Of a DNA stretch of 64,000 bases, positions 7,720 to 36,932 are shown piece after piece (the stretch's first letter is position 1; every line of letters starts with the position of its first letter). The DNA is from Microgenomates group bacterium (lineage in GTDB: Bacteria; Patescibacteriota; Microgenomatia; Daviesbacterales; UBA10151). Position numbers and translations under genes: made by a program. The DNA lies in assembly GCA_041659805.1 (NCBI GenBank), contig JBAZXP010000001.1, positions 966,841 through 1,030,840 of the forward strand, in the 5' to 3' direction. The notes beneath the pieces were generated by a model. The model was not told the DNA's origin, ran no database searches, and saw nothing but the letters and a program-made list of their open reading frames with translations.

Positions 7720-8272
7720 GAAACCAAAAATGAATGTGCCTTACTTGTTTGAATGTTCCTCTTACCAATTTTGTATCAATATTAATCGGTCTTTCAAATA
7801 AAATTACCTTATCAGGAGTTAGTCTTAAAACAGTCATCACTTTGGCTATAAATTCAGCCGCAATAATCCTTTCTGTTGCCGGACTTGCCAACCAGATTAA
7901 AGATTGATTTAAGTCATCTGGTAACCAATATGGAAATAAATTTGGAGCTGCAGCCATATCAGAAGGTCCCAAAAAATCTTTTACCTGTCTTTCCAAATCT
8001 TCTTTTTTTTGTGCGTGATACCTATTATATTCATCTTCTGTCTTTATAGGCAAAAGTTCCAAATGACGTATTTTATCTCTGTCTTTTAAAAGTGAGTTAA
8101 ACTTTGGATAAATTTTGGGATCAATAATTCCCGGTTTTTTAAATTCTCTTCCCAATAAAATCTCAGGTGGTGTCATAATTCCCAAAACATCATCAATTAA
8201 TTCTTTATCCACAGATATATCCTCCAAATCAGTTGTTCTTAAAATATTTGGAATAAATAAAAGTTCTTTCAT
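7709..8272 (-). CDS. hypothetical protein, C-terminal H-x-H-x-hydrophobic motif (possible HIT/GalT-like)
   Basis: 187 aa ending ...VRHIHFWFPTS; 4-bp overlap with the upstream PurA-like gene implies co-translation. Confidence 0.3.
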   Translation of the reverse strand: MKELLFIPNILRTTDLEDISVDKELIDDVLGIMTPPEILLGREFKKPGIIDPKIYPKFNSLLKDRDKIRHLELLPIKTEDEYNRYHAQKKEDLERQVKDFLGPSDMAAAPNLFPYWLPDDLNQSLIWLASPATERIIAAEFIAKVMTVLRLTPDKVILFERPINIDTKLVRGTFKQVRHIHFWFPTS

Positions 8273-9579
8273 ATTATATTTATTGTTTTATCCCCCGCTT
8301 TAGGCCCACTTGATGTTATAACTATAGGTACTTTAATTTGATCCTGAATAAATTGAACATATTCAGATGGAGGCAAAATATAATTTGGTGTGCATTTTTG
8401 TAACATTTCCCCCAATTTTTGCTGATAAATATTATCTGTTGGGTGCATAACTTCAATTTTTTGTAATATTTCCCCTGTCTCAGAGGTATAAGAATTACAT
8501 ATTTTCCATTCCGGCATGCTCTTTAATTTGTCCAAATGAGTTAAGGCAATCCCATCAACAGACCCCAAAACTTCAACAGCATACCTGAGGGTAACTAAAT
8601 CAAAAAACCCTACTCTAAAATTACCCTGCCAGGGATTAGTTAAATTACTGGTATCAGGCAAGAGCTTAGATAATGTTTTATCTTCTGTGGGAAAAGGGCC
8701 TGCTCCGTGACGCGTAGCATATGCCCTGATTACTCCCAATTTGTATACTTCCCCCTGATATCTACTACACCAAATAAGCTCATCAGCATTTCCAAATGTA
8801 GTATCCCCGTGGGTAATATATGGGTAAAATCCATATTCTTGATCTAGAAGCACACCTTGTGCTCCTTCAAAAATAGCAGTTCCTTTCTGATCTAATATCT
8901 TTTTTAAATAATGTCTGTCCACAATTTTAGCAACAGAAATAAATTCTTTATATAAATCCAAAGTGTAGTTTATAGCCTCAGGACTGTCTAAAATCTTCAA
9001 CTCTCTTTTTACTAAATCTGATTCAGGAAAGCTTCCTCTTAAATTCTTTATCTTTTTCAGTTGAACATCACGAAGAAATCGTAATTTCTTTTTTGCCGTT
9101 TTTGCGTCAAGTAAATCTTCCATCATCAAAGTTTCTCTGCCAAACTTTAAATAATCTGCCATAGCTTCACTGACCCCTCTGCCTGTACTGCTTGTTGTAT
9201 TTAAAGTCAGCAATCTGTTTGATGTCTGATGAAAAGGAGTGATCACAGGACATTCCCCTTCTATAGTAGTTTTTTGGAAAGCATCATTAATTCCCATTTC
9301 CTTTAAACCCCGTTCTTCTTTTAGCATGCTCAAAGGATCAACCAGCATAAATCTGGAAAGATGAGTCTTTGTGCCACCTAAAGTTCCACTGCCAAATTGG
9401 GAAAAAATATGCTGATGTCCTTCAGGACTGATTACATTATGCCCGGCCTGAGCACCTCCGTTATAACGGATCACAGTATGTGCATTAAATTCCCTGCACA
9501 AAAAATCAGTAAGGCTGCCTTTTCCGGCGTCGCCGAAACCTAAATCTGCTATTTGTATTACTTTTTGCATTTCTTTCAT
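8269..9579 (-). CDS. purA: adenylosuccinate synthetase family protein (divergent PurA)
   Basis: PurA hallmarks present: GDAGKGS P-loop (canonical GDEGKGK), GGAQAGHNV, TGRG, FEGAQGVLLDQEYGFYPYIT, AYATRHGAGPFPTE, THLD, ITSSGP; 436 aa. Confidence 0.65.
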   Translation of the reverse strand: MKEMQKVIQIADLGFGDAGKGSLTDFLCREFNAHTVIRYNGGAQAGHNVISPEGHQHIFSQFGSGTLGGTKTHLSRFMLVDPLSMLKEERGLKEMGINDAFQKTTIEGECPVITPFHQTSNRLLTLNTTSSTGRGVSEAMADYLKFGRETLMMEDLLDAKTAKKKLRFLRDVQLKKIKNLRGSFPESDLVKRELKILDSPEAINYTLDLYKEFISVAKIVDRHYLKKILDQKGTAIFEGAQGVLLDQEYGFYPYITHGDTTFGNADELIWCSRYQGEVYKLGVIRAYATRHGAGPFPTEDKTLSKLLPDTSNLTNPWQGNFRVGFFDLVTLRYAVEVLGSVDGIALTHLDKLKSMPEWKICNSYTSETGEILQKIEVMHPTDNIYQQKLGEMLQKCTPNYILPPSEYVQFIQDQIKVPIVITSSGPKAGDKTINII

Positions 9580-9601
9580 ATTTTTAAATATAATTACTTT
9601 C

Positions 9602-9632
9602 GGGGGAGAGCCCTTATGTTTGGGGCTCTCCC
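9602..9632 (-). terminator. GC-rich hairpin (GGGAGAGCCC-N9-GGGCTCTCCC) between the vWA stop and the PurA-like start; possible partial terminator/attenuator
   Basis: 10-bp G/C stem in an AT-rich genome, 24 nt before the PurA-like ATG; a moderately U-rich tract follows on the minus strand. Confidence 0.4.
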
Positions 9633-9638
9633 GCCTTG

Positions 9639-10631
9639 CTACAGAAGCCTATATTTAGGCTTATCTGTATCTATCGGACCTAAATTGGTCCCACTATCAC
9701 CTTTAACTAACCTGCCATGCACTGGCACTACTGCGTTCCTGACAGCCAAGATTGTACTCTTACTGACTCCAAACTCTGCCAGGTTTTTCGAACCTGCGTC
9801 AAGATCAGTTGTCCCTTCGGATAAACCGATTTGTAGAGCAATTGTCTCGCAAACAGCCTCAGGATCTTCAAGCTGCAGGACATTTTGTCCTAAAAGCTTT
9901 CTCCAGGAAGCTAAAACTTCCGGGTCTCTCCCATTGCTAGCTGCAGTAGGCAGAATGTAAAAGGTCTCGTATCGTTTTTTCACTTCTTCAAATATCTCAA
10001 CAGTTGAGATATTTTCCTGAAGTGTGTCACCGATCACGTCAGCAACCTCTCTGGCTTTAACATTCGGATAAACCATTTCATCGCCGATAATAAACAAATA
10101 ACCTTTGTGTCTTCGTATATTCCAGCAATCAATGTCCGTATGTCTGGCCATAAAGTAGGTAGCCAACTCATAGCTTTCTGTTTTTTGAGCACCTCCGCCA
10201 CCTTCCAAAAGAATTTTTTCCAAATTCTCATCCATCCTGTTATCAGATTCAAACTGACCAATCTGAAGCGGAACACTGTCGCAGGTTGCGTCCCCAATGG
10301 CACCGAACAAAAACTGTGGATGCTCAGCCCAACCTTTCCGTACTACCAACCCGTTTAATTCCCCCAACTTTTTCTGGAAAATTTGGGGCAGAGTTCTCAT
10401 AGAACCCGTCACATCAAACAGTGTTGCAATGGCTAAAGAATATGCATGTTCTGCACTATCCCGACTTTCACGGAACCTGATACCTTTTGGATCAAGATTC
10501 GGATGAGCTTTCCACTTATCGCGGGAATACCGCTTAGTGTAATCATCATAGTCAAAAACCTTTTTTCCACTGGCTACTCTGGCCTTCTCACGTTCAGAAA
10601 AAACGTCTGTTGTCCATTCACCACCTCCCAT
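9639..10631 (-). CDS. von Willebrand factor A (vWA) domain protein
   Basis: MIDAS motif DVTGSM (DxSGS), downstream GGGGAQ and FIIGDE; likely start is MGGGEW at 10631, preceded by AAGGAGGTGA; the 9639..10673 ORF may be over-extended. Confidence 0.6.
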   Translation of the reverse strand: MGGGEWTTDVFSEREKARVASGKKVFDYDDYTKRYSRDKWKAHPNLDPKGIRFRESRDSAEHAYSLAIATLFDVTGSMRTLPQIFQKKLGELNGLVVRKGWAEHPQFLFGAIGDATCDSVPLQIGQFESDNRMDENLEKILLEGGGGAQKTESYELATYFMARHTDIDCWNIRRHKGYLFIIGDEMVYPNVKAREVADVIGDTLQENISTVEIFEEVKKRYETFYILPTAASNGRDPEVLASWRKLLGQNVLQLEDPEAVCETIALQIGLSEGTTDLDAGSKNLAEFGVSKSTILAVRNAVVPVHGRLVKGDSGTNLGPIDTDKPKYRLL

Positions 10632-11757
10632 TTTTATCACCTCCTTTCGCATTTTTTGGCATACTAAATACATGAAATTTCTTAGGACCCCATAAATCTA
10701 CAATCATAGAATCAAATTCTTCGAGTAATCCCCAGGCATCTTTTGGTCTTTGTTTCGCGGGCAACAAACAACCTCTGAAAAAAGCCTTTATTTTGGGATG
10801 AATATCACTTGGCAATTCCCCTAATTGAGGGTTACCTCCCAAAAGGTAAATCATATTTTTAGCTCCCAGATAAATATCCAATCCGGGACTCACCGGTTCT
10901 TTTTTGAATACTTCAGGCGGATACCAACTCTCCCAGTCACCGGATAGCGCCTGTAACCGTCCGCCTGTTGGATCTTTTTCAATTACAGAATATGACCATT
11001 CATTTATAACCAGTCCGTGTTTTTCCGGTTGGACAAAAAGATTTTGCGGCAGGGCAGCCCCATGAATTAAATTATTTTGATGTGCAAATCCCAACCCTAC
11101 TAATACTCTTCTGAATATCCATGCCATATCTTTTTGATCAATTCCTTTCGGATAAGCGTTTTTTACATCAACAAAAGAAAAAAGCTCATCCGGCCTTTTA
11201 GAAAAAGCATTAATGTTTTTGCGGATATGGTTGCTGTCCTCAAAAATAAAAGAATCAATTAAACCGGGAAAATACGGACGGAAATTATCAAAATTATCTA
11301 CTTCAGCCAATTTGCGAAGCATTTTAGCCTCATTTTCTACAAATTCGTTATCAAGAGGACTTTTTGCAACTTTAAATATGGCTGGAATATTAGTGCCACC
11401 TTCTTTATAGGTAGCCCCATGAACATTGCAAAAATCTGTTTGTGAGAAGGAATCAAAAATTTCATATTCCCTGACTCTGGTTCTGATGGTTAGCAAAACA
11501 TCCGGTGGAATTTGACCATAAGTTCCCAATTTTATTTTTTCCTGAGCTCTTTCCCAAAGCCTGGTCAGATTAATAAAGGCATCTTGAGCCTCTACTCCAC
11601 CATTTAAATCCGGATGAGTGAGCTTGCTTAATTGTCTGTATGTGGAAAGTACAGTTTTCAGAGGGTCGGCTGCTTCGCCTAATCCACCAAAGACATCTTC
11701 AGGATGTTTGGCATTGATAATTTTTTGTGTTATTAAATCTGACTCATTTTCTTTCAT
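10618..11757 (-). CDS. J-domain (DnaJ-like, HPD) fused to a degenerate protein-kinase-like (pseudokinase) domain
   Basis: YRQLSKLTHPDLNGGVEAQDAFINLTRLWE is a J-domain helix II-III with HPD. A kinase-like fold follows: AIFKVAK (beta3 Lys), ENEAKMLRKL (alphaC Glu), LIHGAALPQNLFV replacing HRDLKPEN (no catalytic Asp), no DFG, WYPPE replacing APE. Likely start is the ATG at 11757 preceded by GGAGGA, rather than the GTG at 11775. Confidence 0.55.
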   Translation of the reverse strand: MKENESDLITQKIINAKHPEDVFGGLGEAADPLKTVLSTYRQLSKLTHPDLNGGVEAQDAFINLTRLWERAQEKIKLGTYGQIPPDVLLTIRTRVREYEIFDSFSQTDFCNVHGATYKEGGTNIPAIFKVAKSPLDNEFVENEAKMLRKLAEVDNFDNFRPYFPGLIDSFIFEDSNHIRKNINAFSKRPDELFSFVDVKNAYPKGIDQKDMAWIFRRVLVGLGFAHQNNLIHGAALPQNLFVQPEKHGLVINEWSYSVIEKDPTGGRLQALSGDWESWYPPEVFKKEPVSPGLDIYLGAKNMIYLLGGNPQLGELPSDIHPKIKAFFRGCLLPAKQRPKDAWGLLEEFDSMIVDLWGPKKFHVFSMPKNAKGGDKNGRW

Positions 11758-11763
11758 GTTGTA

Positions 11764-11826
11764 AGTGTCCTCCACACACTAACTATAGTGTAACTATTAC
11801 ACAAAGGTTAGTGTTTTGTCAACACC
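11764..11826. promoter_or_regulatory. three tandem palindromic operator-like sites AGTGT-N7-ACAC(T/A/C) at 11764, 11787 and 11810 (23-bp phasing), overlapping the RBS/start and a TTGACA -35 on the minus strand
   Basis: AGTGTcctccacACACT (perfect), AGTGTaactattACACa, AGTGTtttgtcaACACc; the third spacer is the reverse complement of TTGACA, followed by a TGTGTAATAG-like -10. Confidence 0.5.
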
Positions 11827-12124
11827 CTATTTTGATTCTTGACGATTTATTATTAGAGCCCTACAATACCAATCTAGAAGACTGCTCTTTAAAAAATGAG
11901 TAAAGTTGATTTAGATTATTATGATAGGTTAGAGGTTAGCCCCCGTGCCAGAGCCTCTGTGGTGAACTTTGCTTAAAAGGAGATTTACTGGCAACAGCTG
12001 TGAATGTTTTTCAGGCTTTTAAATCAGTTTATCCTGATCCAACAACCCGCGAAAAACAAAATCCCAATCTATTCAGGTTACCCCAGAAATTATTCCGTTC
12101 GATGTTTAAGTAATACCTGAAATT

Positions 12125-15100
12125 TTAACGTAGAATACTATCAATAGTGTGATCCACTAAAATCCTTTGTCTTCTATCCCCTATTTTGGGCAGAATAACT
12201 CTTTTGCAGACATCTTTTACATTTGCAGCATGATTCATACGAAGTGCAATATTGACCATTTCCCGAAGAGAGGTTGTAAAATCCATGGGTTCATTAGATT
12301 CACCAACTTGATATGCCTGATACATCCTTCGAAGGTCATTAGCTACCCTGATTGCATCATATAACCTTCTGACATCTTTTTCTAAATTTGCGTTGGCTTT
12401 AAGGAGCATATCTCCTCCATTGGTGGTATCTCTGTTTATAATATAATCCCAGGCTTGTTTAAATTCCTTTTGTTGTAAACTTTCTAAAACATGAACATAT
12501 GAAAACAACATTTCAGCCTCATCACTTCTATAATAAGTTCTTCCATTTCTTGGTTCTTCAAATGGAGGATAAGCAACCTCTATAATATCTCCTCTGGAAA
12601 GAATTGTTTCAGCTAATTTATCTACACCTGCATAGTCCTGAGGATTCATAGTACCTGCTAAAATAACTGTCGGATCAGCAATAACTTCATGCTGCACTCC
12701 ACCTTCATTAACAACCAACTTCCTTCTATAATCAAATAACGGATTTAACATTTTTACAATTCCCGGTTTGACTGTATTAATTTCATCAAACAGAATAATT
12801 GCCCCCGGCTTTTGTAATGCTTCTATTAAACGTGAAGGTAATTTATAAGTTCCTTTATCAGGATCATAATAAAATTCATAGGTTAAATCTTCTTTTGCTG
12901 TATTTTCATTACAAGCAATCGTCACAACTTCCCTATTGGAAAGATTAGCCAATACATCTATTAATACATTTTTCCCTGTTCCTGCTTCTCCTTCTAAAAT
13001 AGTAATCCCCATATGATTATCCATTTGGATATTCAGGCTCTCTGCTAACTCTTCCAGTTTTTTATTTTGATATTCAGATATTTTCCATCTGTCATTATAT
13101 TCAGGAACTTCCCTTTTTAAGCCTTTGAAATGATCTTCTGCCTCTTTTCTGTGTCTTTCGATCATACGAGCAGTATCTTCAAAGTTTAAATCAGGTATAA
13201 CCGGCGTCCTATGATCTGGACTTGGATGCCAAAGTCTACCTTGTTCATCCTGAAATGCTAAATCAGCATGCATGGCTCCGGCAATCGGAAGTAAAACAGG
13301 CCTCCATAAACGGGGCGGCTCTTTATAAACCGGAAAGCTAACTTGACCAAACTTTAATTCTCCTGTATCTCCAACAACACCCAACTCTTTTCTGTGTTCA
13401 ATATCCTTTTTGCGTGCACCCATCACTACTTCCAATTTTTTCTCTTCGATTTCACGAAGTTCAGGTGGTAAGGCAAAAATCTTGGCTCTCCAGGCAGTAA
13501 CCAAAGGATTTCTGTCAAACCTATCTAATTCTCTTGTATCTGAAAGCTCTGTAATTTGCTCCCTTAATGAAGCCAAATCTTCTTTGGCCTCTTCTACTAA
13601 CTGAGCCCATCTTAAACGTTGTTCCTCTTCCAGCTGCCTGCCTCTGGATTCAAGCTGAGATCTTTGTTCAGATTTGATAATATTTAGCTTGTCCCTAAGC
13701 TCTTTTCTTACCTGTGGGTCCCGGACATTTGCCAACATCATCTCAAATTGTTGTGCTTCAATTGTAGTTCCAAACATTGCCAACTCCTGAGAAGAACCAG
13801 TTTCTTTAATAAGCTGTTCTATATTAGGAAAGGCACCTTGGATTGCATCAGATAATTCTTGTTGGTATTGTCCAACAACCATTTCCTTTTTAGCTTGTAT
13901 CGATCTTAACCTCTGTTCTATATTTCTGCGGGTTGCAGGATCAGTAACATCTGTTTTTTGACGAAGCTCCAAAAGTCTGGCAAATTCTTCGTCCAAACCG
14001 ATCGTATCCCCCATACTTTTTACCTCCGTTATTGATTTTTCATATTCGGCAAGTTGATTATCAAATTCAGCTGTCCTAATCCCACTCAACTTTTCTCTGG
14101 CCTTACTAATAAATTCATCTACTACTTCACCATATGCCTGGTTTGCAGGATCTGCTTTAAGACCCTGAAGCCTATCCATAATCTCTTCAATTGCTTCCGG
14201 GTCGGTTGTTTGAACTAAGGGTTCATCGACTTGTCTGGCGATTGCTTCACGTAAGGTATTCGCAACATCCTCTTCAGAAATTCCATTACCTTTTTGTTTT
14301 TGAACTCTTTTAAGTTCCAAAGATGCAAACCTTTCCTGCATTTCACGAAGTTGTTCTTCTCTTTTTTCATGAGCTAACTCGCTACCACCTGTAGGAATAG
14401 CCTGAAAATTTGTTTGTATTTCTCTTAATTTATTTTCAGTATCAACATATAAAATATCTCCTTGTTTATCGACCAAAATTGGCCCTAAAACATTATTGAA
14501 TTCCTTAACTACCTCTCCAGATTCTTTATCAATGATTGATAGTTTTTGGCCAGATCTGACAATGAAAAAATTAACATTCGGATCAATCTCTATTTCTTCG
14601 GGATTCTCAACTCTTATTTGAGCTTCAAGCAAAGGCCGAGCACTTCTATCCGCTACCCCATTCAAATCCAGGCTATATATTCCTCCAGTATTAATAAAAT
14701 AGAGCTTACTTTGATCATTTGGGTCTAAAGTTGGCTTAGAACCACTAAAGCTAGCCAGCTCCTTTCCATCTGAACCATTTATTTTGAAAAAATGCGCTTC
14801 CTCTTTAAGTGTTAACTCTCCTATAAGTTTTGCTGACGGATCAATAAGTTGACTAAACACTTCATTAGTAACTGTCTTTTTAGTCGCAGGTTGTGTAGGA
14901 TTAATAAAAAAATAGTTTTCTTCGGTTTGAAAAATAAAGCCAGTCGTATTTTTTTCAGGAACCTTTCGAATCTTCATTTCCCATTTTCCGACAGGAATAA
15001 AAAATTCAGCGTTTTTTCTAACATCTGTCTTATCCATCATAAAGCCATATTCTGCTCCATAGCGTGTTCCTAACTGATTTTTAGCGATTTTACGCCAAGT

Positions 15101-15499
15101 AGTCTGAATTGTTTCCTGCGCTGCTTTTTTGGAAAAACCTATTTTTCTAAGCAAGTAACTAAAATCGTCTGAATAATCATTAGTTTTATCAACTGCTATG
15201 TAAGTTCTACTATTCGCATCAGCTATATCATAGGTTGTAGGGTCTAGATGAACTCTTGAGAGATTACCCAGACCATCAAACATTAAAGCTTCATAATGAT
15301 TTTCGATTTTAGACAAAATCCCGACTACTTCATCGATCTTTTTTATATCCTGTACTTCTCCTACTAATCGTTCCTTGAATCTTTCTTCAGGCAAAAGCTG
15401 AGTCTCTACTGTTTGAGCCAAAAGACTTCTTTGAACCAATATTTTTTCTTCTTCTTTCATATTATAGGGTATTTTACGCTTTTCATAATCAAATTTCAA
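12125..15499 (-). CDS. giant coiled-coil protein with C-terminal MoxR/AAA_5-type AAA+ ATPase domain
   Basis: 1124 aa. The N-terminal ~330 aa look like beta-rich repeats and ~450 aa are heptad-rich coiled coil. C-terminal AAA+ motifs: GEAGTGKNV Walker A (GKN variant), ILFDEINTVKPGIVKMLNPLFD (MoxR-like DEINRA Walker B region), AGTMNP sensor-1. Confidence 0.6.
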   Translation of the reverse strand: MKFDYEKRKIPYNMKEEEKILVQRSLLAQTVETQLLPEERFKERLVGEVQDIKKIDEVVGILSKIENHYEALMFDGLGNLSRVHLDPTTYDIADANSRTYIAVDKTNDYSDDFSYLLRKIGFSKKAAQETIQTTWRKIAKNQLGTRYGAEYGFMMDKTDVRKNAEFFIPVGKWEMKIRKVPEKNTTGFIFQTEENYFFINPTQPATKKTVTNEVFSQLIDPSAKLIGELTLKEEAHFFKINGSDGKELASFSGSKPTLDPNDQSKLYFINTGGIYSLDLNGVADRSARPLLEAQIRVENPEEIEIDPNVNFFIVRSGQKLSIIDKESGEVVKEFNNVLGPILVDKQGDILYVDTENKLREIQTNFQAIPTGGSELAHEKREEQLREMQERFASLELKRVQKQKGNGISEEDVANTLREAIARQVDEPLVQTTDPEAIEEIMDRLQGLKADPANQAYGEVVDEFISKAREKLSGIRTAEFDNQLAEYEKSITEVKSMGDTIGLDEEFARLLELRQKTDVTDPATRRNIEQRLRSIQAKKEMVVGQYQQELSDAIQGAFPNIEQLIKETGSSQELAMFGTTIEAQQFEMMLANVRDPQVRKELRDKLNIIKSEQRSQLESRGRQLEEEQRLRWAQLVEEAKEDLASLREQITELSDTRELDRFDRNPLVTAWRAKIFALPPELREIEEKKLEVVMGARKKDIEHRKELGVVGDTGELKFGQVSFPVYKEPPRLWRPVLLPIAGAMHADLAFQDEQGRLWHPSPDHRTPVIPDLNFEDTARMIERHRKEAEDHFKGLKREVPEYNDRWKISEYQNKKLEELAESLNIQMDNHMGITILEGEAGTGKNVLIDVLANLSNREVVTIACNENTAKEDLTYEFYYDPDKGTYKLPSRLIEALQKPGAIILFDEINTVKPGIVKMLNPLFDYRRKLVVNEGGVQHEVIADPTVILAGTMNPQDYAGVDKLAETILSRGDIIEVAYPPFEEPRNGRTYYRSDEAEMLFSYVHVLESLQQKEFKQAWDYIINRDTTNGGDMLLKANANLEKDVRRLYDAIRVANDLRRMYQAYQVGESNEPMDFTTSLREMVNIALRMNHAANVKDVCKRVILPKIGDRRQRILVDHTIDSILR

Positions 15500-15503
15500 A
15501 TAT

Positions 15504-17771
15504 TTACTGAAGGTATCGTTTAAATTGAATTAAGCAGGTTCTGAGTAATCTAAAGGCTTCATCAGGCAAATCCTCAAATTTTTCCGGATAAGCACAATTG
15601 CTTTCACCAAAATATAAGTTTAAATAATTTTGTATCTGTTGTCTTTCATTCGCATTTCCGGATAATCCAAAAGCTTTAAAGGTAAGTCTGCCTCTGTTTT
15701 CTTCAACATAGTCCCGCAAATCATCCCCTGTCAAACCTTGATTAGCTCCTCCGTCTGTGATTACCACAATTAATCCGTGCGAATCTGTGTATCTCCTTCT
15801 TCCCTCATTCATTCCTTCAATAACCAACTCAATTCCTGCATGAATGTCAGTGCTGTTATCTACAGCCTCTGTATAATCAATAATTGCAGGCTTAACCCGC
15901 TCAGAAGGGTTATCAAAATCCTGCTGAAAATCTTTAATTACAACCGCGTCTTCACCAAAGGCAACACCCATAAATGGTATCCCCATATCCTTACAAACTT
16001 CAGAAAAAAAGATCATGGTCTTACGGGCCTGCGCTTGTTTGCTTTTCATCGAATAACTTTTATCTGCTACCAGACCAATAAATAATCTTGGTGCTCCTGT
16101 TGGCCTTTCTATCTGCCTTAAATGAAATCTTTCATCATTCATGGGTGCCCGGCGGACGATCTCCCGTCTATCAAATTTCGGACCGCTAAAAAATTCGCCT
16201 TCATATCTGCCTTCACCTTTTCTGGGGATTACTTTTTCAATTGCCTGTCTGAAATTCCTGATATTGGAATACATACTATCTTCTAAAGTTTTATAAATTA
16301 AATACTTTTCCCGCTCATGTTCCGGATCAAAACCAGCCTGTTCCATATCTAATTTTTCACGCCTTAAACTTTCTGTTTGTTTACGCAAGTCTTCCTGTTG
16401 ACGGTATGTACTTTCTGTCGCTTCAGCTTCAGCTCTCTCCTCTGCCTCCACCTCATTCACAATTTTCTGATACTCACCGGCAGCGTTATTTTGTTGATTT
16501 TCATCTGCCAATTGAGGCTGTCTTTCATATTCTCCTGTATCATTATTCTTCTCCAATTTAGCAGTTTTATTTAAATCCTCCTCTAAGGCTTCTTTTTGTG
16601 CCTCATCGATAATTTCTCTTGACTTTTTCTCTAAAGCTTCTCTTTCTGCAGAGGGAAGTTGATCTATTGCTTCTTGCAGTTCCTTTAATTGTTCATCAGT
16701 AAATTGTGATAAATCAGTCCTTTCCTGTTTATTAACATTCTGGTTTTGTTGCGGTTTTTTTTCTCCGGTGAGAGCCTGTTTAATTCTGTCCATAAATCCT
16801 TGCATTCCGCCTTTTTTGCCTTCACTTTGCCCAGACTGACCTTGATTTTTACCGCCGGGAATACTTGGTACTGCCGCACCTTCTCCTTGTCCTTCTCCTG
16901 CTGATTGACCACCCCCGGACGACTGACCTTGCCCTTGCCCTTGCCCCTGTCCCTTCATGCCTTTTTGTTGTGCCATTTGACGCTTTTCCTCATCTTTTAT
17001 ATCTTTTTTTTCTAAAACCTTAGCAATATCCCAAATTTTATATTGTAAAAGTTTTCTTTCTTCAACATCCGTGTTATTAAAGTATTGATCCAAAAGAGGT
17101 GCTGCTACTTCCCCTAATTTACCCACTTCTGTATTCGCCAGCTCGGGAATTCCTGTTCCATGAAGTGCCCTATGGAAAGATTCATAAGCAAACTGCAACA
17201 TATATGGTCTGTCTTTTAAAGGAGTTTCTGTAATTCTTTCCTGAAGATCTTTACCTTGATTTTCCTTAATCATTTTGTCTATTGCAGGAGACTCTTCACC
17301 CTCAAGATTATTAATTCTGGGATCTTCTATCCCTTCCCAGGTTAACCAGAAACTTGTAGGCAAGTTTCCATCATCTGTTGCCTTCCTCTGTCCCTCATAC
17401 ATCAACCTGAAATCTGTGTATTTTGCATGACCTGCTTCATGATGAAGAATGGTATCAATTTCCTCCCAATTCATATCCTGAGCAGACTCAGCATCATAAA
17501 GAATTTGTTTTGCTCTAAAAGACTCAGGAGGCAGATCATCCAGAGTTTCTCTTTTGCCCTGAATATATTTTATGATTTCATTATTCACCTTAGGGTCTAA
17601 AGAGGTGGCCCAAACACCCTTGTTTCTGGAAGGAATAACTGCAATATCATATCTTCTGGCAAAAACTCTCCCCATATGAGCGATAAGTTTATTTTTTTCG
17701 AAGCGAAGATGCTCGGCTTTTTGTGCCGATTCTTCTGGGTCGCGCCGTAAAAAAAACTCTGCTTCTATCAT
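15504..17771 (-). CDS. HExxH (zincin-like) - low-complexity/coiled-coil - C-terminal vWA domain protein
   Basis: ILHHEAGHAKYTD (HExxH with a downstream Glu), (GQ)n tract, long coiled-coil, C-terminal MIDAS LVADKSYSM...VVITDGGAN; 4 bp upstream of the MoxR-type gene, as in a MoxR/vWA partner arrangement. Confidence 0.55.
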   Translation of the reverse strand: MIEAEFFLRRDPEESAQKAEHLRFEKNKLIAHMGRVFARRYDIAVIPSRNKGVWATSLDPKVNNEIIKYIQGKRETLDDLPPESFRAKQILYDAESAQDMNWEEIDTILHHEAGHAKYTDFRLMYEGQRKATDDGNLPTSFWLTWEGIEDPRINNLEGEESPAIDKMIKENQGKDLQERITETPLKDRPYMLQFAYESFHRALHGTGIPELANTEVGKLGEVAAPLLDQYFNNTDVEERKLLQYKIWDIAKVLEKKDIKDEEKRQMAQQKGMKGQGQGQGQGQSSGGGQSAGEGQGEGAAVPSIPGGKNQGQSGQSEGKKGGMQGFMDRIKQALTGEKKPQQNQNVNKQERTDLSQFTDEQLKELQEAIDQLPSAEREALEKKSREIIDEAQKEALEEDLNKTAKLEKNNDTGEYERQPQLADENQQNNAAGEYQKIVNEVEAEERAEAEATESTYRQQEDLRKQTESLRREKLDMEQAGFDPEHEREKYLIYKTLEDSMYSNIRNFRQAIEKVIPRKGEGRYEGEFFSGPKFDRREIVRRAPMNDERFHLRQIERPTGAPRLFIGLVADKSYSMKSKQAQARKTMIFFSEVCKDMGIPFMGVAFGEDAVVIKDFQQDFDNPSERVKPAIIDYTEAVDNSTDIHAGIELVIEGMNEGRRRYTDSHGLIVVITDGGANQGLTGDDLRDYVEENRGRLTFKAFGLSGNANERQQIQNYLNLYFGESNCAYPEKFEDLPDEAFRLLRTCLIQFKRYLQ

Positions 17772-17859
17772 AGTAATCTTTGAATTATACTATAAGCCAT
17801 ACATAAAAGACAACATGATTGACATGAAGGAAACTTACAGTGTATAAAATACTTATCAC

Positions 17860-18989: not shown

Positions 18990-19028
18990 TATTTGACTTT
19001 TTTGGGTTTTCAGCGTATCTTTGTGTGT

Positions 19029-19721
19029 ATGAGTGACACTATCAAACTTCCGGAAAAATATAATTTGAACGATTATCAGTGCCCTTCTGTAACTGTTGAT
19101 ATCCTTGTTTTTACAATCGAAGCTTCTGAACTAAAAGTATTACTCATCAAACGGGCAATCGAGCCTTTTAAAGACGAATGGGCTTTACCGGGAGGATTTA
19201 TAAAGATGGATGAATCCTTAGAAGCAGCAGCCTTAAGAGAATTAGTACAGGAAACAGGTGTAAAAAATGTTTATTTGGAACAACTTTATACTTTTGGGGA
19301 TACCAACAGAGATCCCAGAAGCAGAGTTATTACTGTTGCCTACTTCGCTCTTGTTCCAAGCGCTAAATTGGATTTGAAAGCATCAACAGACGCAGCTGAT
19401 GTGGCCTGGTTCCCTATAAAAAAACTTCCCAAATTAGCTTTTGATCACAAAAAAATTATTGATTATGCAATGAACAGACTAACAAGCAAGATTGAATATT
19501 CTAATATTGTATATGGATTACTTCCGATTAAATTCCGTCTAAGTGAGTTGCAAAAGGTATATGAAGTTATTTTAAGTAAAAAGATGGATAAAAGAAATTT
19601 CCGTAAATGGATACTTTCCTTAGGGTTACTTGAAGCCACGGGAGAAAAAGACACTGATGGCGCCCACAGACCTGCAGAACTTTTTAAATTTAAAAAAAGA
19701 GAACCAGTTCTATTTGACTAA
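19029..19721 (+). CDS. nrtR: Nudix-related transcriptional regulator (NrtR-like): N-terminal Nudix domain and C-terminal helical/winged-helix-like region
   Basis: Near-canonical Nudix box GGFIKMDESLEAAALRELVQETGV (one Glu to Gln change) followed by an ~80-aa C-terminal domain containing KRNFRKWI; sits next to a full NAD salvage operon. Start is the ATG at 19029; the ORF track uses TTG at 18993. Confidence 0.5.
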   Translation: MSDTIKLPEKYNLNDYQCPSVTVDILVFTIEASELKVLLIKRAIEPFKDEWALPGGFIKMDESLEAAALRELVQETGVKNVYLEQLYTFGDTNRDPRSRVITVAYFALVPSAKLDLKASTDAADVAWFPIKKLPKLAFDHKKIIDYAMNRLTSKIEYSNIVYGLLPIKFRLSELQKVYEVILSKKMDKRNFRKWILSLGLLEATGEKDTDGAHRPAELFKFKKREPVLFD

Positions 19722-19760
19722 AACGAATCCTGACCTTTTTTGTGATCAGGATTTATCGTT
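19722..19760. terminator. bidirectional intrinsic terminator between convergent nrtR-like (+) and pncA (-)
   Basis: AATCCTGAcC-tttttt-GtGATCAGGATT stem-loop flanked by T-runs on both strands. Confidence 0.6.
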
Positions 19761-19768
19761 TTAGTTTT

Positions 19769-20473
19769 TCATTGAGCCTTACCATAAATCTCAATGATTC
19801 TTGGAATTTCTCCAATGCTGATAATCTTAGCTCCAGCTTCTTCCATCTCTAATAAGGCCTGCTTTGCTCCTTCTGGAGTAATACCTGATATTGCATCTTC
19901 TACGATGTACGTCTGTATACCGCGCTTTTGCATCCCTACGACTGCAGCCAGATCACAATACTCAGTCGCAACATAATAAACAATAGCTGCTCTTACTCCT
20001 GCTTCTTTGAGAACAGTTTCAACAGCAGGGTTTGTAAAAACATCATAATGTTGTTTTTCAAAGATTATATCTTTGCCTGATCTTGCAATCTCTGCCAACT
20101 CATCTGGACTATAACGTCTGAAGTTGTCTCCCTCAGCAATCTTATTTTCAACAATTAAAGCTGAATCAGATGCTACTTCAGGAATAAAATCTATGCCAAA
20201 TGTTCCGTCTTCATTTAACTGATTGTATTTCCAATCCATGCAATGAAGCGGAAAAGGGCCTCCGTTATCGATAAGCTCAGGATCATCCATAAAATGTCTG
20301 TCCCTACTCTTAAATCTCCTGATACCTGCATCTTTTAGCATTTTTCCGACAGAAGCAGCATTTTCTCTGATTTCTTCAGCACCAGGAACGTATAATCTTC
20401 CGTCATTTTTTCTCATGAAATCATTCTGTGCATCAACTTCATAACCTATTAATTCTTTTGACATTTTTCTCAC
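19769..20473 (-). CDS. pncA: nicotinamidase/pyrazinamidase (isochorismatase-like cysteine hydrolase)
   Basis: LIGYEVDAQNDFM N-terminal signature and ~230-aa isochorismatase-family length, in an NAD salvage operon. Confidence 0.65.
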   Translation of the reverse strand: MRKMSKELIGYEVDAQNDFMRKNDGRLYVPGAEEIRENAASVGKMLKDAGIRRFKSRDRHFMDDPELIDNGGPFPLHCMDWKYNQLNEDGTFGIDFIPEVASDSALIVENKIAEGDNFRRYSPDELAEIARSGKDIIFEKQHYDVFTNPAVETVLKEAGVRAAIVYYVATEYCDLAAVVGMQKRGIQTYIVEDAISGITPEGAKQALLEMEEAGAKIISIGEIPRIIEIYGKAQ

Positions 20474-20479
20474 CTCCCT

Positions 20480-21385
20480 TCAAGGTAAAATTGCAACTCT
20501 AAGCGGGTGTTCGTGAGCTACAGAGATACTGACTTTACTTCCTTCTTCAAGGTTGAATGAAAAACTATCGTCACTTGGATCAGGATCAAAATCTATTTCT
20601 GTATCTTTCCCTAGAGAAAAAATTGTTAACTCCTCACCTAAATCCAAATCCCCAATTTCCAAAAATCCTGAATCAAGATCTTTTTCTCGGCAAACAAAAC
20701 GGGCATGAGGGGCAGTTCTGGGAAAATGAGAATATTTTTCCATAACTTCATCTTTCCAGTGTCCGACAATATTTCTGTACCAACCTGTAAGCCCTGAACC
20801 TGTGGCAATAACCAAACCGGAATTTTTTTGCTCGTCATTTATTCCGCGATAATTAATAATACTTCTGCTAATCCCTCTGTTTTTCAATTCACCGACAAAG
20901 ATTTCTGATAGAGCAAAAAACGGCAAAAGCTCTCCGTCTAAAACTGCCTGTAATCTTGTCCATTTTTCTGTTTCAAAGGAATTTTTATCCAGACAATCAC
21001 GGAGGTAGTCAATATGTTCAGGTTTAAAAGACAAAATCCCACCTTTAGAAGTTTCCGGATCAGAATTTATTCCAACAACCAGCTGGTCTCCGGTCACAAA
21101 ACGTGACACATATTGCAAATGATTATCTCCTCCGGGACTAAAAATAATGTTATATTTTTTAGCGACATCTACATTAAAATCATCGCGGTGGATTATTGGC
21201 ACGTTTAAAGCTTTGCCTAATTTTTCAATGTTCTCTATCTGTCTGTAATGACTGGCAATTTTTTTATCAGCATCTGCCCCCTGCTTTTTCCACAAATTAA
21301 TCTGATCCTGCATAGAAATATTGGAAGTTTTCATTTTCCATTCAACTACAGTGAGTTTTGGTACGATTACAGCCTCAACGCTCAT
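20480..21385 (-). CDS. nadK: NAD kinase-like (ATP-NAD kinase family, divergent GGDN motif)
   Basis: IIFSPGGDNHLQY (vs GGDGT), VVGINSDPETSKGGILSF (vs NxGxLGFL), ATGSGLTGWYRN (vs SGSTAY). Confidence 0.5.
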   Translation of the reverse strand: MSVEAVIVPKLTVVEWKMKTSNISMQDQINLWKKQGADADKKIASHYRQIENIEKLGKALNVPIIHRDDFNVDVAKKYNIIFSPGGDNHLQYVSRFVTGDQLVVGINSDPETSKGGILSFKPEHIDYLRDCLDKNSFETEKWTRLQAVLDGELLPFFALSEIFVGELKNRGISRSIINYRGINDEQKNSGLVIATGSGLTGWYRNIVGHWKDEVMEKYSHFPRTAPHARFVCREKDLDSGFLEIGDLDLGEELTIFSLGKDTEIDFDPDPSDDSFSFNLEEGSKVSISVAHEHPLRVAILP

Positions 21386-22320
21386 TTTATAAATCTCCTT
21401 TTCCCGATATAATCTTTAATGAATCGATTATGATCAAACGCTAGATTATCAGGTATTTGATCCCAAGGGAATACTTTAATATCAACGGCATCATCACCAG
21501 CTCTTAAGACTCCTCCATCAATCCTTTTTTCATAAACCATAGTGACGTAGTGACCTCTCGGATCTCTATCGGGATCTGAATATTGTCTGAATTGATCTTC
21601 TAAGGAAACTTCAATATCAAGATTTGTTTCTTCTTTTGCTTCCCTAACAGCAGCACCTTCAACAGTTTCCTTTCCATAATTAATATAACCTCCGGGGATT
21701 GCCCATTTTAAGGAATTCGGATCGCCTAATTTTTCTTTTCTCTGGATTAAAACAATACCCTCATCTCTATAATTAAGAATTACATCTGCTGTAACTGCAG
21801 GGTTTAGAAAACGCTCCCTACCGCTGATGCGCTGCTCTCCTTTGATCTTTTTTAGATGAGCAATCACTTCTTCTGGTACCAGGTCTTCCCACTCTCCACC
21901 GTTTTTAATCATTTCCCGAACATCTGTTGCGCAAATCGGTAAATCATGTATCGGCTTTCTGATTTCAATCCCGTATCCGTCAAATATTCTGCTTACCCAA
22001 TTATTTCCTGTGTAAACTATGCTGAATCTTTCAGGACTAAGGATATCGATTAGCTTTCTCCATTTTTCATCATTGTAAACATCGGGAATACCGAAAACTG
22101 CAAATGGTTTTTCCATTCTCTTTTCCAGAGTTGCTTTAATCATTTGCAAGCGTTCATTAAAACTGAAAGGGTTGTGCTCTGTATTGCCTTCCTGAGAAGA
22201 TCCAATTCCGATTAATATTTTTGCAACATCTGGTGCTCTTTCAATTTGTTTGACAACAGAAAGATGCCCCAAGTGAAATGGTTGAAATCTACCTACAACT
22301 AATGCATTTTCTTGTTTCAT
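21382..22320 (-). CDS. nadM: bifunctional NadM-type NMN/NaMN adenylyltransferase with C-terminal Nudix (ADP-ribose pyrophosphatase) domain
   Basis: ALVVGRFQPFHLGH (archaeal-type NMNAT HxGH) plus C-terminal Nudix box AIPGGYINYGKETVEGAAVREAKEETNL; likely start is MKQENAL at 22320. Confidence 0.75.
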   Translation of the reverse strand: MKQENALVVGRFQPFHLGHLSVVKQIERAPDVAKILIGIGSSQEGNTEHNPFSFNERLQMIKATLEKRMEKPFAVFGIPDVYNDEKWRKLIDILSPERFSIVYTGNNWVSRIFDGYGIEIRKPIHDLPICATDVREMIKNGGEWEDLVPEEVIAHLKKIKGEQRISGRERFLNPAVTADVILNYRDEGIVLIQRKEKLGDPNSLKWAIPGGYINYGKETVEGAAVREAKEETNLDIEVSLEDQFRQYSDPDRDPRGHYVTMVYEKRIDGGVLRAGDDAVDIKVFPWDQIPDNLAFDHNRFIKDYIGKRRFIK

Positions 22321-22324
22321 TTTT

Positions 22325-36447: not shown

Positions 36448-36932
36448 TATCTTCTCCCCACAGTTGTTGTAAAAGTTCTAACTTCGCTCCCTGCAACTCT
36501 GGTAGTTGCACTGGTTAAAGTGTATGTTACTTTTATTGTATCTTTACCTCCCGTATTTCCCAATCTTTGAAATGTCAGACCTGAAACCTGAGATTCTGAA
36601 CTATTTAGATTATTTGTTCCAAGGTTATTTACTAACTGTAAATTTGTGCCATTCAGAGAATACGTATAGGTATTTCCCCCTACAACCATTGTTAAAGTAC
36701 CGCCTGAGGCACCAAGAGTTGCCGGTTGGGATATCGATGTCGCCAACGCGACATCGTAAGCTAACCTGGCTGTAATAAACCTACCATCAGTCTGCACAGA
36801 TGAAGTAGCTGCTGATTCTGCTTTAACATCCAAAATAGCCACCAAAACATCAGTTAAAACCAGCAGGAATCCTGCCATCAAACCCATATAAATTAACATT
36901 TCTACTAATGTGAAGCCTTTTTGTTTTTTCAT
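36447..36932 (-). CDS. type IV pilin / pseudopilin
   Basis: MKKQKGFTLVEMLIYMGL N-terminus. Confidence 0.6.
   Translation of the reverse strand: MKKQKGFTLVEMLIYMGLMAGFLLVLTDVLVAILDVKAESAATSSVQTDGRFITARLAYDVALATSISQPATLGASGGTLTMVVGGNTYTYSLNGTNLQLVNNLGTNNLNSSESQVSGLTFQRLGNTGGKDTIKVTYTLTSATTRVAGSEVRTFTTTVGRR

What the first reader, a model, noticed from the sequence alone, without database searches (positions are those of the whole stretch)
12125..17771. MoxR-type AAA+ and its vWA partner are each embedded in giant coiled-coil proteins; the vWA partner also has an HExxH metallopeptidase-like head
Canonical MoxR/vWA pairs are ~300-aa and ~400-600-aa proteins. Here the ATPase (Walker A GEAGTGKN, Walker B ILFDEIN, sensor-1 AGTMNP) is the C-terminal 250 aa of an 1124-aa protein whose N-terminus looks like beta-rich repeats. 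The vWA partner has HHEAGH...E and an in-frame (GQ)n microsatellite. Long coiled-coils suggest a spacer/ruler or filament-like assembly. The Walker A GKN (instead of GKT/S) is unusual and may affect nucleotide binding.
Basis: seen in the sequence. Interest (0 to 1): 0.6.

Follow-up and report, generated by a model that had tools for sequence, protein, structure and literature searches.

The report
CobS/CobT-like motor–adaptor pair with add-ons
Two neighbouring genes of a candidate-phyla-radiation bacterium encode a relative of the CobS/CobT ATPase–adaptor pair, unusual because the ATPase carries a large beta-propeller-plus-helical extension and the adaptor keeps an intact metalloprotease-like site; it is a new variant of a known kind of machine, not a giant coiled-coil assembly.

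Summary
Both ORFs and all quoted motifs are real. The window comes from a Microgenomates-group (CPR) bacterium.

**The 755-aa protein** has the architecture of a CobT adaptor:
- an N-terminal M48-like zincin domain. The model has pLDDT 92.8, its top solved-structure matches are mostly zincin peptidases, and its viral matches are phage "CobT". HExxH and a downstream ED are invariant.
- a length-variable G/Q-rich and charged linker;
- a vWA domain with a complete MIDAS.
Its length is ordinary for this family.

**The 1124-aa protein** is the unusual partner. A C-terminal AAA_5 module, closest to CbbQ, NorQ and midasin, follows about 800 residues of:
- a 6–7-bladed beta-propeller;
- a ~330-aa segmented helical region;
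- a small beta domain.
Canonical long coiled coils are not supported.

**Walker A GKN** holds in 46 of 48 relatives and in distant loci, with every other catalytic motif intact.

**Conservation.** Only the two genes travel together, in five genomes with unrelated flanks. One distant protein fuses ATPase and adaptor in a single chain.

**Most likely function.** It is probably an ATP-driven protein-remodelling and processing machine that works without CobN; the client is unknown. I rate it a new variant of a known kind, of moderate interest.

The parts
15504..17771 (-). CobT-like adaptor gene (755 aa): zincin head, linker, vWA
   Evidence: ORF. It is 100% identical to NCBI 'vWA domain-containing protein [Microgenomates group bacterium]'. 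75 homologues were found.
16986..17771 (-). N-terminal M48-like zincin (CobT_N-type) domain, aa 1-262
17427..17444 (-). HHEAGH (HExxH, aa 110-115)
   Evidence: H111, E112 and H115 are invariant in 63 aligned homologues. 74 of 75 relatives keep the motif, as do most remote relatives.
17316..17336 (-). EGIEDPR (aa 146-152), candidate third metal ligand (E149/D150)
   Evidence: Invariant in the close family. The 'ED' is kept in nearly all remote relatives. The ligand role is inferred, because the model coordinates could not be inspected.
16752..16985 (-). G/Q/S-rich low-complexity linker (aa 263-340), including (GQ)5 at 16923-16952
   Evidence: Period-6 tandem repeat at 16927-16955. Length varies from about 0 to over 150 residues among homologues. 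Mean pairwise identity is 34%.
16302..16751 (-). Charged (E/K/Q-rich) linker with conserved motifs, aa 341-490
   Evidence: D+E is 28-33% in the most acidic windows. Conserved positions include L354, I369, L380, D389, Q392, G413 and P419. No heptad coiled-coil signal. No structure was predicted for this part.
16092..16301 (-). Conserved pre-vWA segment (aa 491-560), possible equivalent of the CobT alpha0'-alpha0 'shaft'
   Evidence: Mean identity 62%, with many invariant residues. The equivalence to the CobT shaft rests only on position and on the preprint's description.
15507..16091 (-). vWA domain (aa 561-755) with MIDAS: D570-x-S572-x-S574, T641, D673
   Evidence: Pfam VWA_2. D570, T641 and D673 are invariant in 18 relatives and S572 and S574 are kept in at least 90%. 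The DxSxS motif is found in 70 of 75 relatives. 7 of 18 relatives hit CobT_C weakly.
12125..15499 (-). Giant AAA_5 ATPase gene (1124 aa from TTG; probably 1111 aa from the ATG at 15460)
   Evidence: ORF. NCBI 'AAA family ATPase', JGI 'MoxR-like ATPase', 1111 aa. About 46 full-length relatives.
14405..15403 (-). Beta-propeller, about 6-7 blades (aa ~33-365), with a helical insert
13382..14383 (-). Segmented alpha-helical region (aa ~373-706), fold unassigned
   Evidence: About 12 helices, the longest 56 and 41 residues, pLDDT 76-90 over most of the region and lower at two breaks. Only aa 630-657 scores like a heptad coiled coil. Mean identity 63%.
13244..13363 (-). Small beta domain (aa ~713-752) before the AAA module
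   Evidence: Four predicted strands. Its lead-in motif 'KFGxxxFPVYKEPPR' (aa 713-729) has look-alikes in L008 and P0185 at E-values that are not significant.
12545..13102 (-). AAA+ core (aa 800-985)
   Evidence: Motif positions (window coordinates): Walker A GEAGTGKN 12968-12991; helix-2 insert hairpin 12839-12883; Walker B 12776-12796; pre-sensor-1 hairpin 12677-12724; sensor 1 12641-12658; Arg finger 12590-12601.

Pfam AAA_5 at E 3e-20. A PDB profile search gives CbbQ 1e-15, NorQ 1e-11 and midasin AAA modules. The two hairpins are read from the sequence, not from a structure.
12128..12544 (-). Enlarged lid / C-terminal helical domain (aa 986-1124)
   Evidence: Mean identity 70%, with conserved R1079 (SLRE) as a candidate sensor 2. 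No structure was predicted for this part.
17784..17813 (-). Promoter-like site upstream of the pair (TTGTCT-18-TATAAT)
   Evidence: Consensus scan, 10 of 12 matches. The scan found no more sites than shuffled sequence would give, so this is weak evidence.

Best explanation
The two genes encode a CobS/CobT-type pair: a MoxR-clade AAA_5 ATPase and its vWA adaptor. The pair appears to work without a CobN chelatase subunit.

**Adaptor (755 aa).** It has the full CobT architecture:
- an M48-like zincin head;
- a long flexible linker;
- a vWA domain with a MIDAS site.
Unlike at least one plasmid 'CobT', it keeps an intact HExxH...ED metal site.

**Motor (about 1111 aa).** It is a CobS/CbbQ/NorQ-like ATPase that has gained a beta-propeller, a helical region and a small beta domain at its N-terminus.

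**Proposed mechanism, by analogy with CobST, CbbQO, NorQD and midasin (inferred, not shown):**
1. The ATPase forms a hexameric ring.
2. The adaptor head docks on the lid domain, and the conserved pre-vWA segment engages the pore.
3. The MIDAS face holds an acidic residue of a client protein.
4. ATP hydrolysis remodels that client.

The propeller, whose first half is hypervariable, most likely recruits or selects the client. The intact zincin site most likely cleaves the client or the adaptor itself.

**What is shown:** gene linkage, domain folds, motif conservation, and a natural fusion of both functions in one chain.
**What is inferred:** ring formation, docking, the client, and proteolysis.
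For: **Linkage**
- The genes lie 4-43 nt apart on the same strand.
- The vWA-then-AAA pair is the only conserved unit in the window, L001/L002, L005, L006 and the distant L007. All flanks differ.
- P0185 (1411 aa) combines AAA_5, CobT (PF06213) and vWA in one chain, with HEVWH.

**Adaptor**
- The head is a zincin fold and matches phage CobT proteins over its whole length.
- A profile of the head finds only 84 cluster representatives among 1.84 billion. The remote ones carry Pfam CobT_C above its cut-off.
- CobT_N is described as M48C-like, followed by a disordered linker and a vWA variant (preprint).
- HExxH, ED and MIDAS are conserved.

**Motor**
- Pfam AAA_5 above its cut-off, and phrog_249 (CobS-type) at 4e-14.
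- PDB profile hits to CbbQ, NorQ and midasin only.
- Walker B, sensor 1 and Arg finger are intact in 45-46 of 48 relatives.
- GKN is invariant even in L007, L008 and Aquifex. Two relatives have GKS, so N and S look interchangeable.
- The propeller is supported.
- The same CobT-then-MoxR gene order occurs on an Acinetobacter plasmid.
- A MoxR plus [peptidase-vWA] chaperone pair was proposed for jumbo phages (PMC7824862).
Against: - The window proteins reach no Pfam or NCBIfam cut-off for CobT, CobT_C or CobS. The CobT link rests on fold matches and a chain of remote homologues.
- tblastn of both proteins against phage genomes finds nothing.
- hhalign against a plasmid CobT is weak (E 0.047).
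- No client is identified.
- The Aquifex relative has no vWA gene within 8 kb.
- Absence of CobN is inferred from CPR biology and from the flanks seen, not from a whole-genome check.
- The effect of Asn in Walker A is untested.
- The CobSTN structural source is an unreviewed 2026 preprint.
Confidence: 0.55

Rival explanations
1. It is an NTP-dependent conflict (defence or counter-defence) system of the MoxR-vWA type. The hypervariable half of the propeller would sense a foreign protein. The ATPase would act as a threshold switch that releases the zincin as an effector.
For: - Within an otherwise well-conserved protein (54-74% identity), the first half of the propeller has only 23% mean identity. 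That is a signature seen in conflict systems (Kaur et al. 2020).
- Metallopeptidase effectors and propellers occur in MoxR-vWA ternary systems.
- The cassette sits in different genomic contexts.
- In the window it neighbours a module that is otherwise found in phages.
Against: - No PADLOC model matches either protein meaningfully.
- There is no third component (VMAP, iSTAND or FtsH), and the propeller is on the ATPase, not on the vWA protein.
- The zincin sits in the CobT_N position that docks on the motor, not in an 'effector position'.
- No flank looks like a defence island.
- The phage-like neighbour module is absent next to the pair elsewhere.
Confidence: 0.2
2. The ATPase is catalytically dead or binds nucleotide only, because of the Walker A GKN. 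The pair would then be a static scaffold or adaptor, not a motor.
For: Asn replaces the canonical Ser/Thr that coordinates magnesium, in 46 of 48 relatives and in the distant loci.
Against: - Walker B DE, sensor 1 Asn and the Arg finger are conserved in almost all members. That would be unexpected in a dead enzyme.
- Two close relatives carry GKS with no other change.
- An Asn side-chain oxygen can in principle coordinate Mg2+ (general chemistry, not tested here).
Confidence: 0.08
3. It is the CobS/CobT motor of a real ATP-driven cobalt or other metal chelatase.
For: - The architecture resembles CobST, and relatives carry CobT and CobT_C Pfam domains.
- The best PHROGs match of the ATPase is to a family labelled 'porphyrin biosynthesis'.
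Against: - No CobS or CobT equivalog model is hit.
- No CobN-like gene appears in the 64-kb window ORFs examined or in the flanks of five loci.
- CPR bacteria generally lack corrin synthesis (general knowledge).
- The motor carries about 800 extra residues that CobS lacks.
- The HExxH is under strong conservation here, whereas the CobT_N crystal-structure description mentions no zinc.
Confidence: 0.05
4. One reading: long coiled coils make a spacer, ruler or filament assembly.
For: Both proteins have long charged helical stretches. One helix of 56 residues contains a 28-residue heptad-like window.
Against: - The heptad score is at tropomyosin level for 2% of the ATPase and 0% of the vWA protein.
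- The helices are interrupted by Pro- and Gly-containing breaks.
- The vWA linker is low-complexity and variable in length, as in the disordered CobT linker.
Confidence: 0.03

Closest known systems
CobS-CobT, the motor and adaptor of aerobic cobaltochelatase CobNST (bioRxiv 10.64898/2026.07.21.739949; viral cobST clusters, PMC8651126)
   Same: - A two-gene AAA_5 ATPase plus adaptor.
- The adaptor consists of an M48-like N-domain (helix, 3-stranded sheet, about 8 helices), a disordered linker and a vWA domain with MIDAS.
- Remote relatives carry Pfam CobT and CobT_C.
   Different: - The window proteins reach no CobS or CobT model cut-off.
- The motor is about 3 times longer, with a propeller, a helical region and a small beta domain.
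- Walker A is GKN rather than GKS.
- The linker is about 230 residues against about 90.
- HExxH is intact and invariant.
- No CobN is seen.
MoxR AAA+ plus [N-terminal metallopeptidase-vWA] pair of group 2.2 jumbo phages (Iyer et al. 2021, PMC7824862)
   Same: A MoxR-clade ATPase sits next to a vWA protein whose N-terminus is a metallopeptidase domain. The proposed role is a chaperone plus proteolytic processing.
   Different: - This pair is cellular (CPR chromosome), not viral.
- There is no detectable sequence match to phage genomes.
- The ATPase has the large N-terminal extension.
CbbQ-CbbO and NorQ-NorD (CbbQ/GvpN/NorQ subfamily of MoxR ATPases)
   Same: These are the best single-domain matches among solved structures: CbbQ E 1e-15, NorQ E 1e-11. 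Each is paired with a partner carrying a C-terminal vWA domain.
   Different: Those ATPases are about 270-380 aa with no N-terminal domains. Their partners are not known to carry an HExxH head (my own knowledge, not tested here). Their clients, Rubisco and NO reductase, are not implicated here.
Midasin/Rea1
   Same: Its AAA_5 modules are the top PDB hits. Its overall logic is similar: a motor, then a long acidic linker, then a MIDAS domain.
   Different: Midasin is a single eukaryotic chain of about 4900 aa with six fused AAA modules and no peptidase domain. The high summed score reflects several modules matching at once.
MoxR-vWA ternary conflict systems (VMAP, iSTAND, FtsH and beta-propeller types; Kaur et al. 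2020, PMC7159879)
   Same: A MoxR-clade ATPase plus a vWA protein, with propellers, helical regions and occasional metallopeptidase domains in the mix. Variant P-loops are reported there too (GxxxTAKS).
   Different: There is no third component. [quoted passage not shown] There are no effector-associated domains and no PADLOC hit.

Membership tests
MoxR-clade AAA+ ATPases, AAA_5 (CbbQ/NorQ/CobS/midasin) branch | Match to the AAA_5 profile above the curated cut-off, with nearest solved relatives in this branch | tested here: met
   Pfam AAA_5 scores 72.9 bits against a cut-off of 22, covering positions 3-138 of 139. PDB profile search: CbbQ 1e-15, NorQ 1e-11, midasin modules; the weaker hits beyond these (E >= 1.8e-5) are ClpB/Hsp104-type and NtrC-type AAA+ proteins, not MoxR relatives.
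MoxR-clade AAA+ ATPases, AAA_5 branch | Intact Walker A, Walker B, sensor 1 and Arg finger | tested here: met
   Walker B hhhhDE in 46 of 48 relatives (two carry EE), sensor 1 MNPQ in 45 of 48, SR in 45 of 48. Walker A is GxxGxGK followed by N in 46 of 48. The Asn is a deviation whose functional effect is untested.
MoxR-clade AAA+ ATPases, AAA_5 branch | Helix-2 insert and pre-sensor-1 beta-hairpins | tested here: inconclusive
   Sequence segments TYEFYYDPDKGTYKL (aa 873-887) and RKLVVNEGGVQHEVIA (aa 926-941) sit at the expected places and lie within the AAA_5 match.
MoxR proper (AAA_3) | AAA_3 profile above the cut-off | tested here: not met
   AAA_3 scores 20.1 bits against a cut-off of 27.
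CobS (cobaltochelatase ATPase subunit) | Equivalog or domain models (NCBIfam CobS, Pfam CobS_N) and a size of about 330 aa | tested here: not met
   No CobS model appears among the NCBIfam or Pfam hits at E <= 0.1. The protein is 1111-1124 aa. Only PHROGs family 249 (CobS-type, labelled 'porphyrin biosynthesis') matches, at 4e-14.
CobT-type adaptor | M48-like N-domain (helix, 3-stranded sheet, about 8 helices) | tested here: met
CobT-type adaptor | Pfam CobT (PF06213) or CobT_C (PF11775) above the cut-off | tested here: not met
   The window protein hits only VWA_2. 7 of 18 close relatives hit CobT_C below its cut-off. Remote relatives linked by the head profile pass the cut-off: P0161, P0166, P0167, P0168, P0172, P0174, P0181 and P0183 for CobT_C, and P0185 for CobT.
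CobT-type adaptor | C-terminal vWA domain with a complete MIDAS, and adjacency to an AAA_5 ATPase | tested here: met
   D570, T641 and D673 invariant; S572 and S574 kept in at least 90% of relatives. Adjacent ATPase in all five genomes.
Cobaltochelatase CobNST | Presence of CobN and a corrin pathway in the genome | not testable with these tools
   Only 64 kb of the 1.13-Mb contig that carries the identical proteins was available. The Pfam and PHROGs scans of about two dozen window ORFs and the precomputed Pfam lists of the related loci show no CobN-like domain.
Zincin metallopeptidases (gluzincin / M48-M56-like) | HExxH on the active-site helix, a third ligand on a following helix, and a zincin fold | tested here: met
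MoxR-vWA ternary conflict systems (Kaur et al. 2020) | [quoted passage not shown] | tested here: not met
   Only two genes are conserved. The propeller is on the ATPase. No PADLOC match.
Long coiled-coil proteins | Sustained heptad periodicity over a hundred or more residues | tested here: not met
   A home-made heptad score flags 68% of tropomyosin, 0% of myoglobin, 2% of the ATPase (aa 630-657) and 0% of the vWA protein. The model shows broken helices. The score is crude.

The most novel reading that the evidence does not exclude
The pair could be an ATP-dependent protease of a new layout. In this reading, a live M48-like zincin sits on the vWA adaptor and is tethered by a long flexible linker to a ring ATPase. 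That ATPase carries its own rapidly evolving beta-propeller as a substrate receptor.

If so, it may preserve the ancestral state from which the protease-dead CobT adaptors of class I chelatases derive. In episymbiotic CPR bacteria it could serve to recognise and process variable host, phage or self proteins.
Probability: 0.2. Interest if true: 0.65.

Novelty: new variant of a known kind. Interest (0 to 1): 0.4.

Why it matters
CobS/CobT-like gene pairs are common in phages and scattered in bacteria. Outside cobalt chelation their function is unknown.

This CPR family offers a version with three useful properties:
- The adaptor's peptidase-like site is strictly conserved.
- The motor has a built-in propeller with a hypervariable face.
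- The chelatase subunit is apparently missing.

That makes a non-chelatase role directly testable, namely ATP-driven client remodelling with proteolysis. It also bears on how chelatase motors evolved. Finally, the clade-wide GKN Walker A is a natural experiment on the need for Ser/Thr at that position.

Tried and rejected
- **Phage origin of the pair.** tblastn of both proteins against 50,697 phage records gave no match. The window has bacterial housekeeping, pilus and histidine-kinase genes.
- **Known defence system.** PADLOC gave only noise-level hits on the P-loop region.
- **Direct Pfam assignment of the head.** No hit at E <= 0.1. There were only sub-threshold M56, M48 and DUF5700 hits among 18 members.
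- **Coiled coil.** Rejected by the heptad score with controls and by the model.
- **A three- or four-gene operon with the downstream kinase-like and vWA-like genes.** Rejected: that module is absent next to the pair in four other genomes and occurs on its own elsewhere.
- **The 360-aa protein between adaptor and ATPase in L008 as a detached propeller.** No BLAST similarity, so this stays unresolved.
- **AFDB fold search.** The library was unavailable, so BFVD was used instead.
- **Direct comparison with a plasmid 'CobT' and its MoxR partner by hhalign.** Only weak: E 0.047 for the head and 3e-4 for the ATPase. The local alignment places QEVAK where this family has HEAGH.
- **tRNA and Rfam scans of the window.** Nothing found.

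Full report
**Observation**

They are 15504-17771 (-) of 755 aa and 12125-15499 (-) of 1124 aa. They are 100% identical to proteins of a 'Microgenomates group bacterium' on a 1.13-Mb contig. NCBI names them 'vWA domain-containing protein' and 'AAA family ATPase', and JGI names the second 'MoxR-like ATPase'.

The ATPase probably starts at the ATG at 15460, which gives 1111 aa. All quoted motifs are present. The (GQ)5 run is a 29-bp, period-6 repeat.

The window is bacterial, not viral:
- It carries type IV pilus genes, histidine kinases, an MFS transporter and NAD salvage genes.
- It has no tRNA gene and no Rfam match.

**The vWA protein is a CobT-type adaptor**

Residues 1-262 fold with high confidence (pLDDT 92.8) into a helix, a three-stranded sheet and seven to eight helices. 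HExxH lies on helix 102-118.

- BlaR1 (M56)
- the minigluzincins projannalysin, proabylysin and selecase
- Spartan
- HtpX and M48 peptidases
- M1 aminopeptidases

Foldseek against viral models returns phage proteins named 'Cobalt chelatase, CobT subunit', 'CobT-like' or 'VWFA domain containing'. These align over the whole domain with TM 0.53-0.59. They include the N-terminal half of the split CobT of HHTV-2 (PMC8651126).

A profile of the head searched against 1.84 billion cluster representatives finds only 84 proteins.
- Most are 600-1000 aa with the head at the N-terminus.
- The distant ones carry Pfam CobT_C above its cut-off.
- One of them, P0185, carries Pfam CobT (PF06213) directly after an HEVWH motif.

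A July 2026 preprint on the CobSTN structure describes CobT in three parts:
- an M48C-like N-domain with exactly this topology;
- a disordered linker of about 90 residues;
- a vWA variant whose preceding 'shaft' enters the CobS ring, while the N-domain docks on the CobS lid.

Conservation within the window protein's family:

| Element | Conservation |
|---|---|
| H111, E112, H115 | invariant in 63 aligned homologues |
| EGxEDPR (aa 146-152) | invariant in the close family |
| MIDAS residues (D570, S572, S574, T641, D673) | three invariant, two kept in at least 90% of 18 relatives |
| HExxH and the 'ED' | persist in most remote relatives |

In an Acinetobacter plasmid 'CobT', a weak alignment places QEVAK at the same spot.

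The region between head and vWA has three parts:
- a G/Q/S-rich tract that varies from about 0 to over 150 residues;
- a charged segment with conserved motifs;
- a well-conserved pre-vWA segment.

At 755 aa the protein is of ordinary size for this family.

**The ATPase is the unusual partner**

Residues 834-969 match Pfam AAA_5 at E 3e-20. A profile of the AAA module, built to include distant relatives, hits CbbQ (1e-15), NorQ (1e-11) and individual midasin modules. It hits no MoxR-proper, RavA or BchI structure. AAA_3 stays below its cut-off.

Walker B, sensor 1 and the arginine finger are intact in nearly all relatives.

Walker A reads GEAGTGKN in 44 relatives, GDAGVGKN in 2 and GEAGTGKS in 2. 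Asn is also kept in the 32%- and 37%-identical proteins of L007 and L008, and in Aquifex. GKN is therefore a hallmark of the clade. Because the other catalytic residues are conserved and Ser occurs naturally at this position, it more likely supports activity than abolishes it. This is an inference.

A model of residues 14-810 (pLDDT 80.8) shows four parts:
- a beta-rich domain;
- about 12 helices over roughly 330 residues, the longest 56 and 41 residues;
- a small four-stranded domain;
- a connecting helix.

A profile search with this N-terminal 800 residues finds only the same family: 46 proteins, all about 1100 aa with a C-terminal AAA_5.

A crude heptad score, checked on tropomyosin and myoglobin, flags only residues 630-657 of the ATPase and nothing in the vWA protein. 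'Giant coiled coils' is therefore not supported.

Pairwise identity is very uneven along the protein:

| Region of the ATPase | Mean pairwise identity |
|---|---|
| First half of the propeller, with its helical insert | 23% |
| Second half of the propeller | 54% |
| Helical region | 63% |
| AAA core | 74% |

**Linkage**

The vWA-then-AAA order, with gaps of 4-75 nt, recurs in three other CPR genomes and in a distant metagenomic contig. The flanks are unrelated in every case.
- In L008 a 360-aa protein of unknown fold lies between a CobT_C-bearing adaptor and a shorter, 629-aa GKN ATPase.
- P0185 fuses a beta-rich N-terminus, AAA_5, a CobT-type head, a Q/G-rich linker and vWA in one chain.
- The Aquifex relative (936 aa) has no vWA gene nearby.

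The downstream kinase-like, vWA-like and PurA-like genes of the window form a separate module.

**Interpretation**

The best-supported reading is a CobS/CobT-type motor-adaptor pair that works without CobN. It has two lineage-specific features:
- a live-looking zincin site on the adaptor;
- a propeller, helical region and small beta domain on the motor.

The proposed mechanism follows CobST (preprint), CbbQO, NorQD and midasin. All of it is inference from those systems:
1. The ATPase forms a ring.
2. The adaptor docks through its head and its pre-vWA segment.
3. The MIDAS face holds a client.
4. ATP hydrolysis remodels that client.

The propeller is the obvious candidate for client selection. 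The zincin is the obvious candidate for cleavage, as Iyer et al. proposed for the jumbo-phage MoxR plus [peptidase-vWA] pair.

A conflict-system reading is the main rival. The hypervariable propeller half favours it. It lacks the third component and the effector organisation of the described systems, and PADLOC finds no match.

**Verdict**

- The pair is a new variant of a known kind.
- Interest is moderate. The adaptor architecture and the MoxR-peptidase-vWA theme are already known. The fused propeller-helical ATPase, the clade-wide GKN and the strictly conserved HExxH in a genome unlikely to make cobalamin are new, and they are testable.

**Limits**

- The structures are predictions.
- The AAA module, its lid and the adaptor linker were not modelled.
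- Taxon names exist for only a few family members.
- The main structural comparator is an unreviewed preprint.

Noticed in passing
window 8269-11775 (- strand); loci L004, L009-L017: Immediately downstream of the pair lies a three-gene module:
- a J-domain plus kinase-like protein (10618-11775; it has an HPD motif and matches phrog_3043 'kinase' at 2e-35);
- a 344-aa protein whose DVTGSM motif I read as MIDAS-like, hence 'vWA-like' (9639-10673; it matches phrog_2971 at 1.5e-70 and no Pfam family);
- a PurA-like adenylosuccinate synthetase (8269-9579).

The same order occurs in Mycobacterium phage Bread (gp257-259), in Anaerolineae/Chloroflexia MAGs and in a WWE3 CPR genome. The vWA-like plus PurA-like pair also occurs in Hamadaea and in four Chryseobacterium genomes. 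221 phage records hold the 344-aa protein, 202 of them from Mycobacterium phages.

It is a mobile module of unknown function, independent of the finding.
   Followed up: partly
window 11896-12113 (+ strand), in the 349-bp gap between the ATPase gene and the kinase-like gene: A possible frameshifted remnant of a small J-domain gene. One frame reads MSKVDLDYYDRLEVSPRA... and another reads ...AFKSVYPDPTTR..., with YPD where a J domain has HPD. The resemblance is weak and was judged by eye only. A 165-aa DnaJ gene also lies about 2 kb from the pair in L007.
   Followed up: partly
P0185 (1411 aa, metagenomic; found): A single chain combines a beta-rich N-terminus, AAA_5 (with GKT), a CobT-type head with HEVWH, a Q/G-rich linker and a vWA domain. 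It is a natural fusion of motor and adaptor.
   Followed up: partly
L008 8113-9195: In a distant version of the cassette, a 360-aa protein with no Pfam hit sits between the CobT_C-bearing adaptor and a shorter (629-aa) GKN ATPase. It may be a detached N-terminal module or a third component. It has no BLAST similarity to the window ATPase.
   Followed up: partly
P0189, P0190 (about 1000 aa): Two weak relatives of the zincin head (E about 5e-4, HEIGH kept) carry a transglutaminase-core domain in place of a recognisable vWA domain.
   Followed up: no
window 18993-25125: A cluster of NAD salvage and synthesis genes. Nicotinate phosphoribosyltransferase (23950-25125) is supported by Pfam. NAD synthetase (22325-23953) is supported by a PHROGs match. 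Neighbouring ORFs look by eye like a nicotinamidase, an NAD kinase and a Nudix/NrtR-type regulator, but those were not checked.
   Followed up: no
window 42411-44780 and 46770-49118 (- strand): Two paralogous histidine kinases of about 785 aa; the HAMP, PAS, HisKA and HATPase_c domains were shown by Pfam for the first only. They lie next to a type IV pilus cluster that includes a T2SSE ATPase (40299-41984) and a pilin-like N-methylation motif protein (36929-38767).
   Followed up: no
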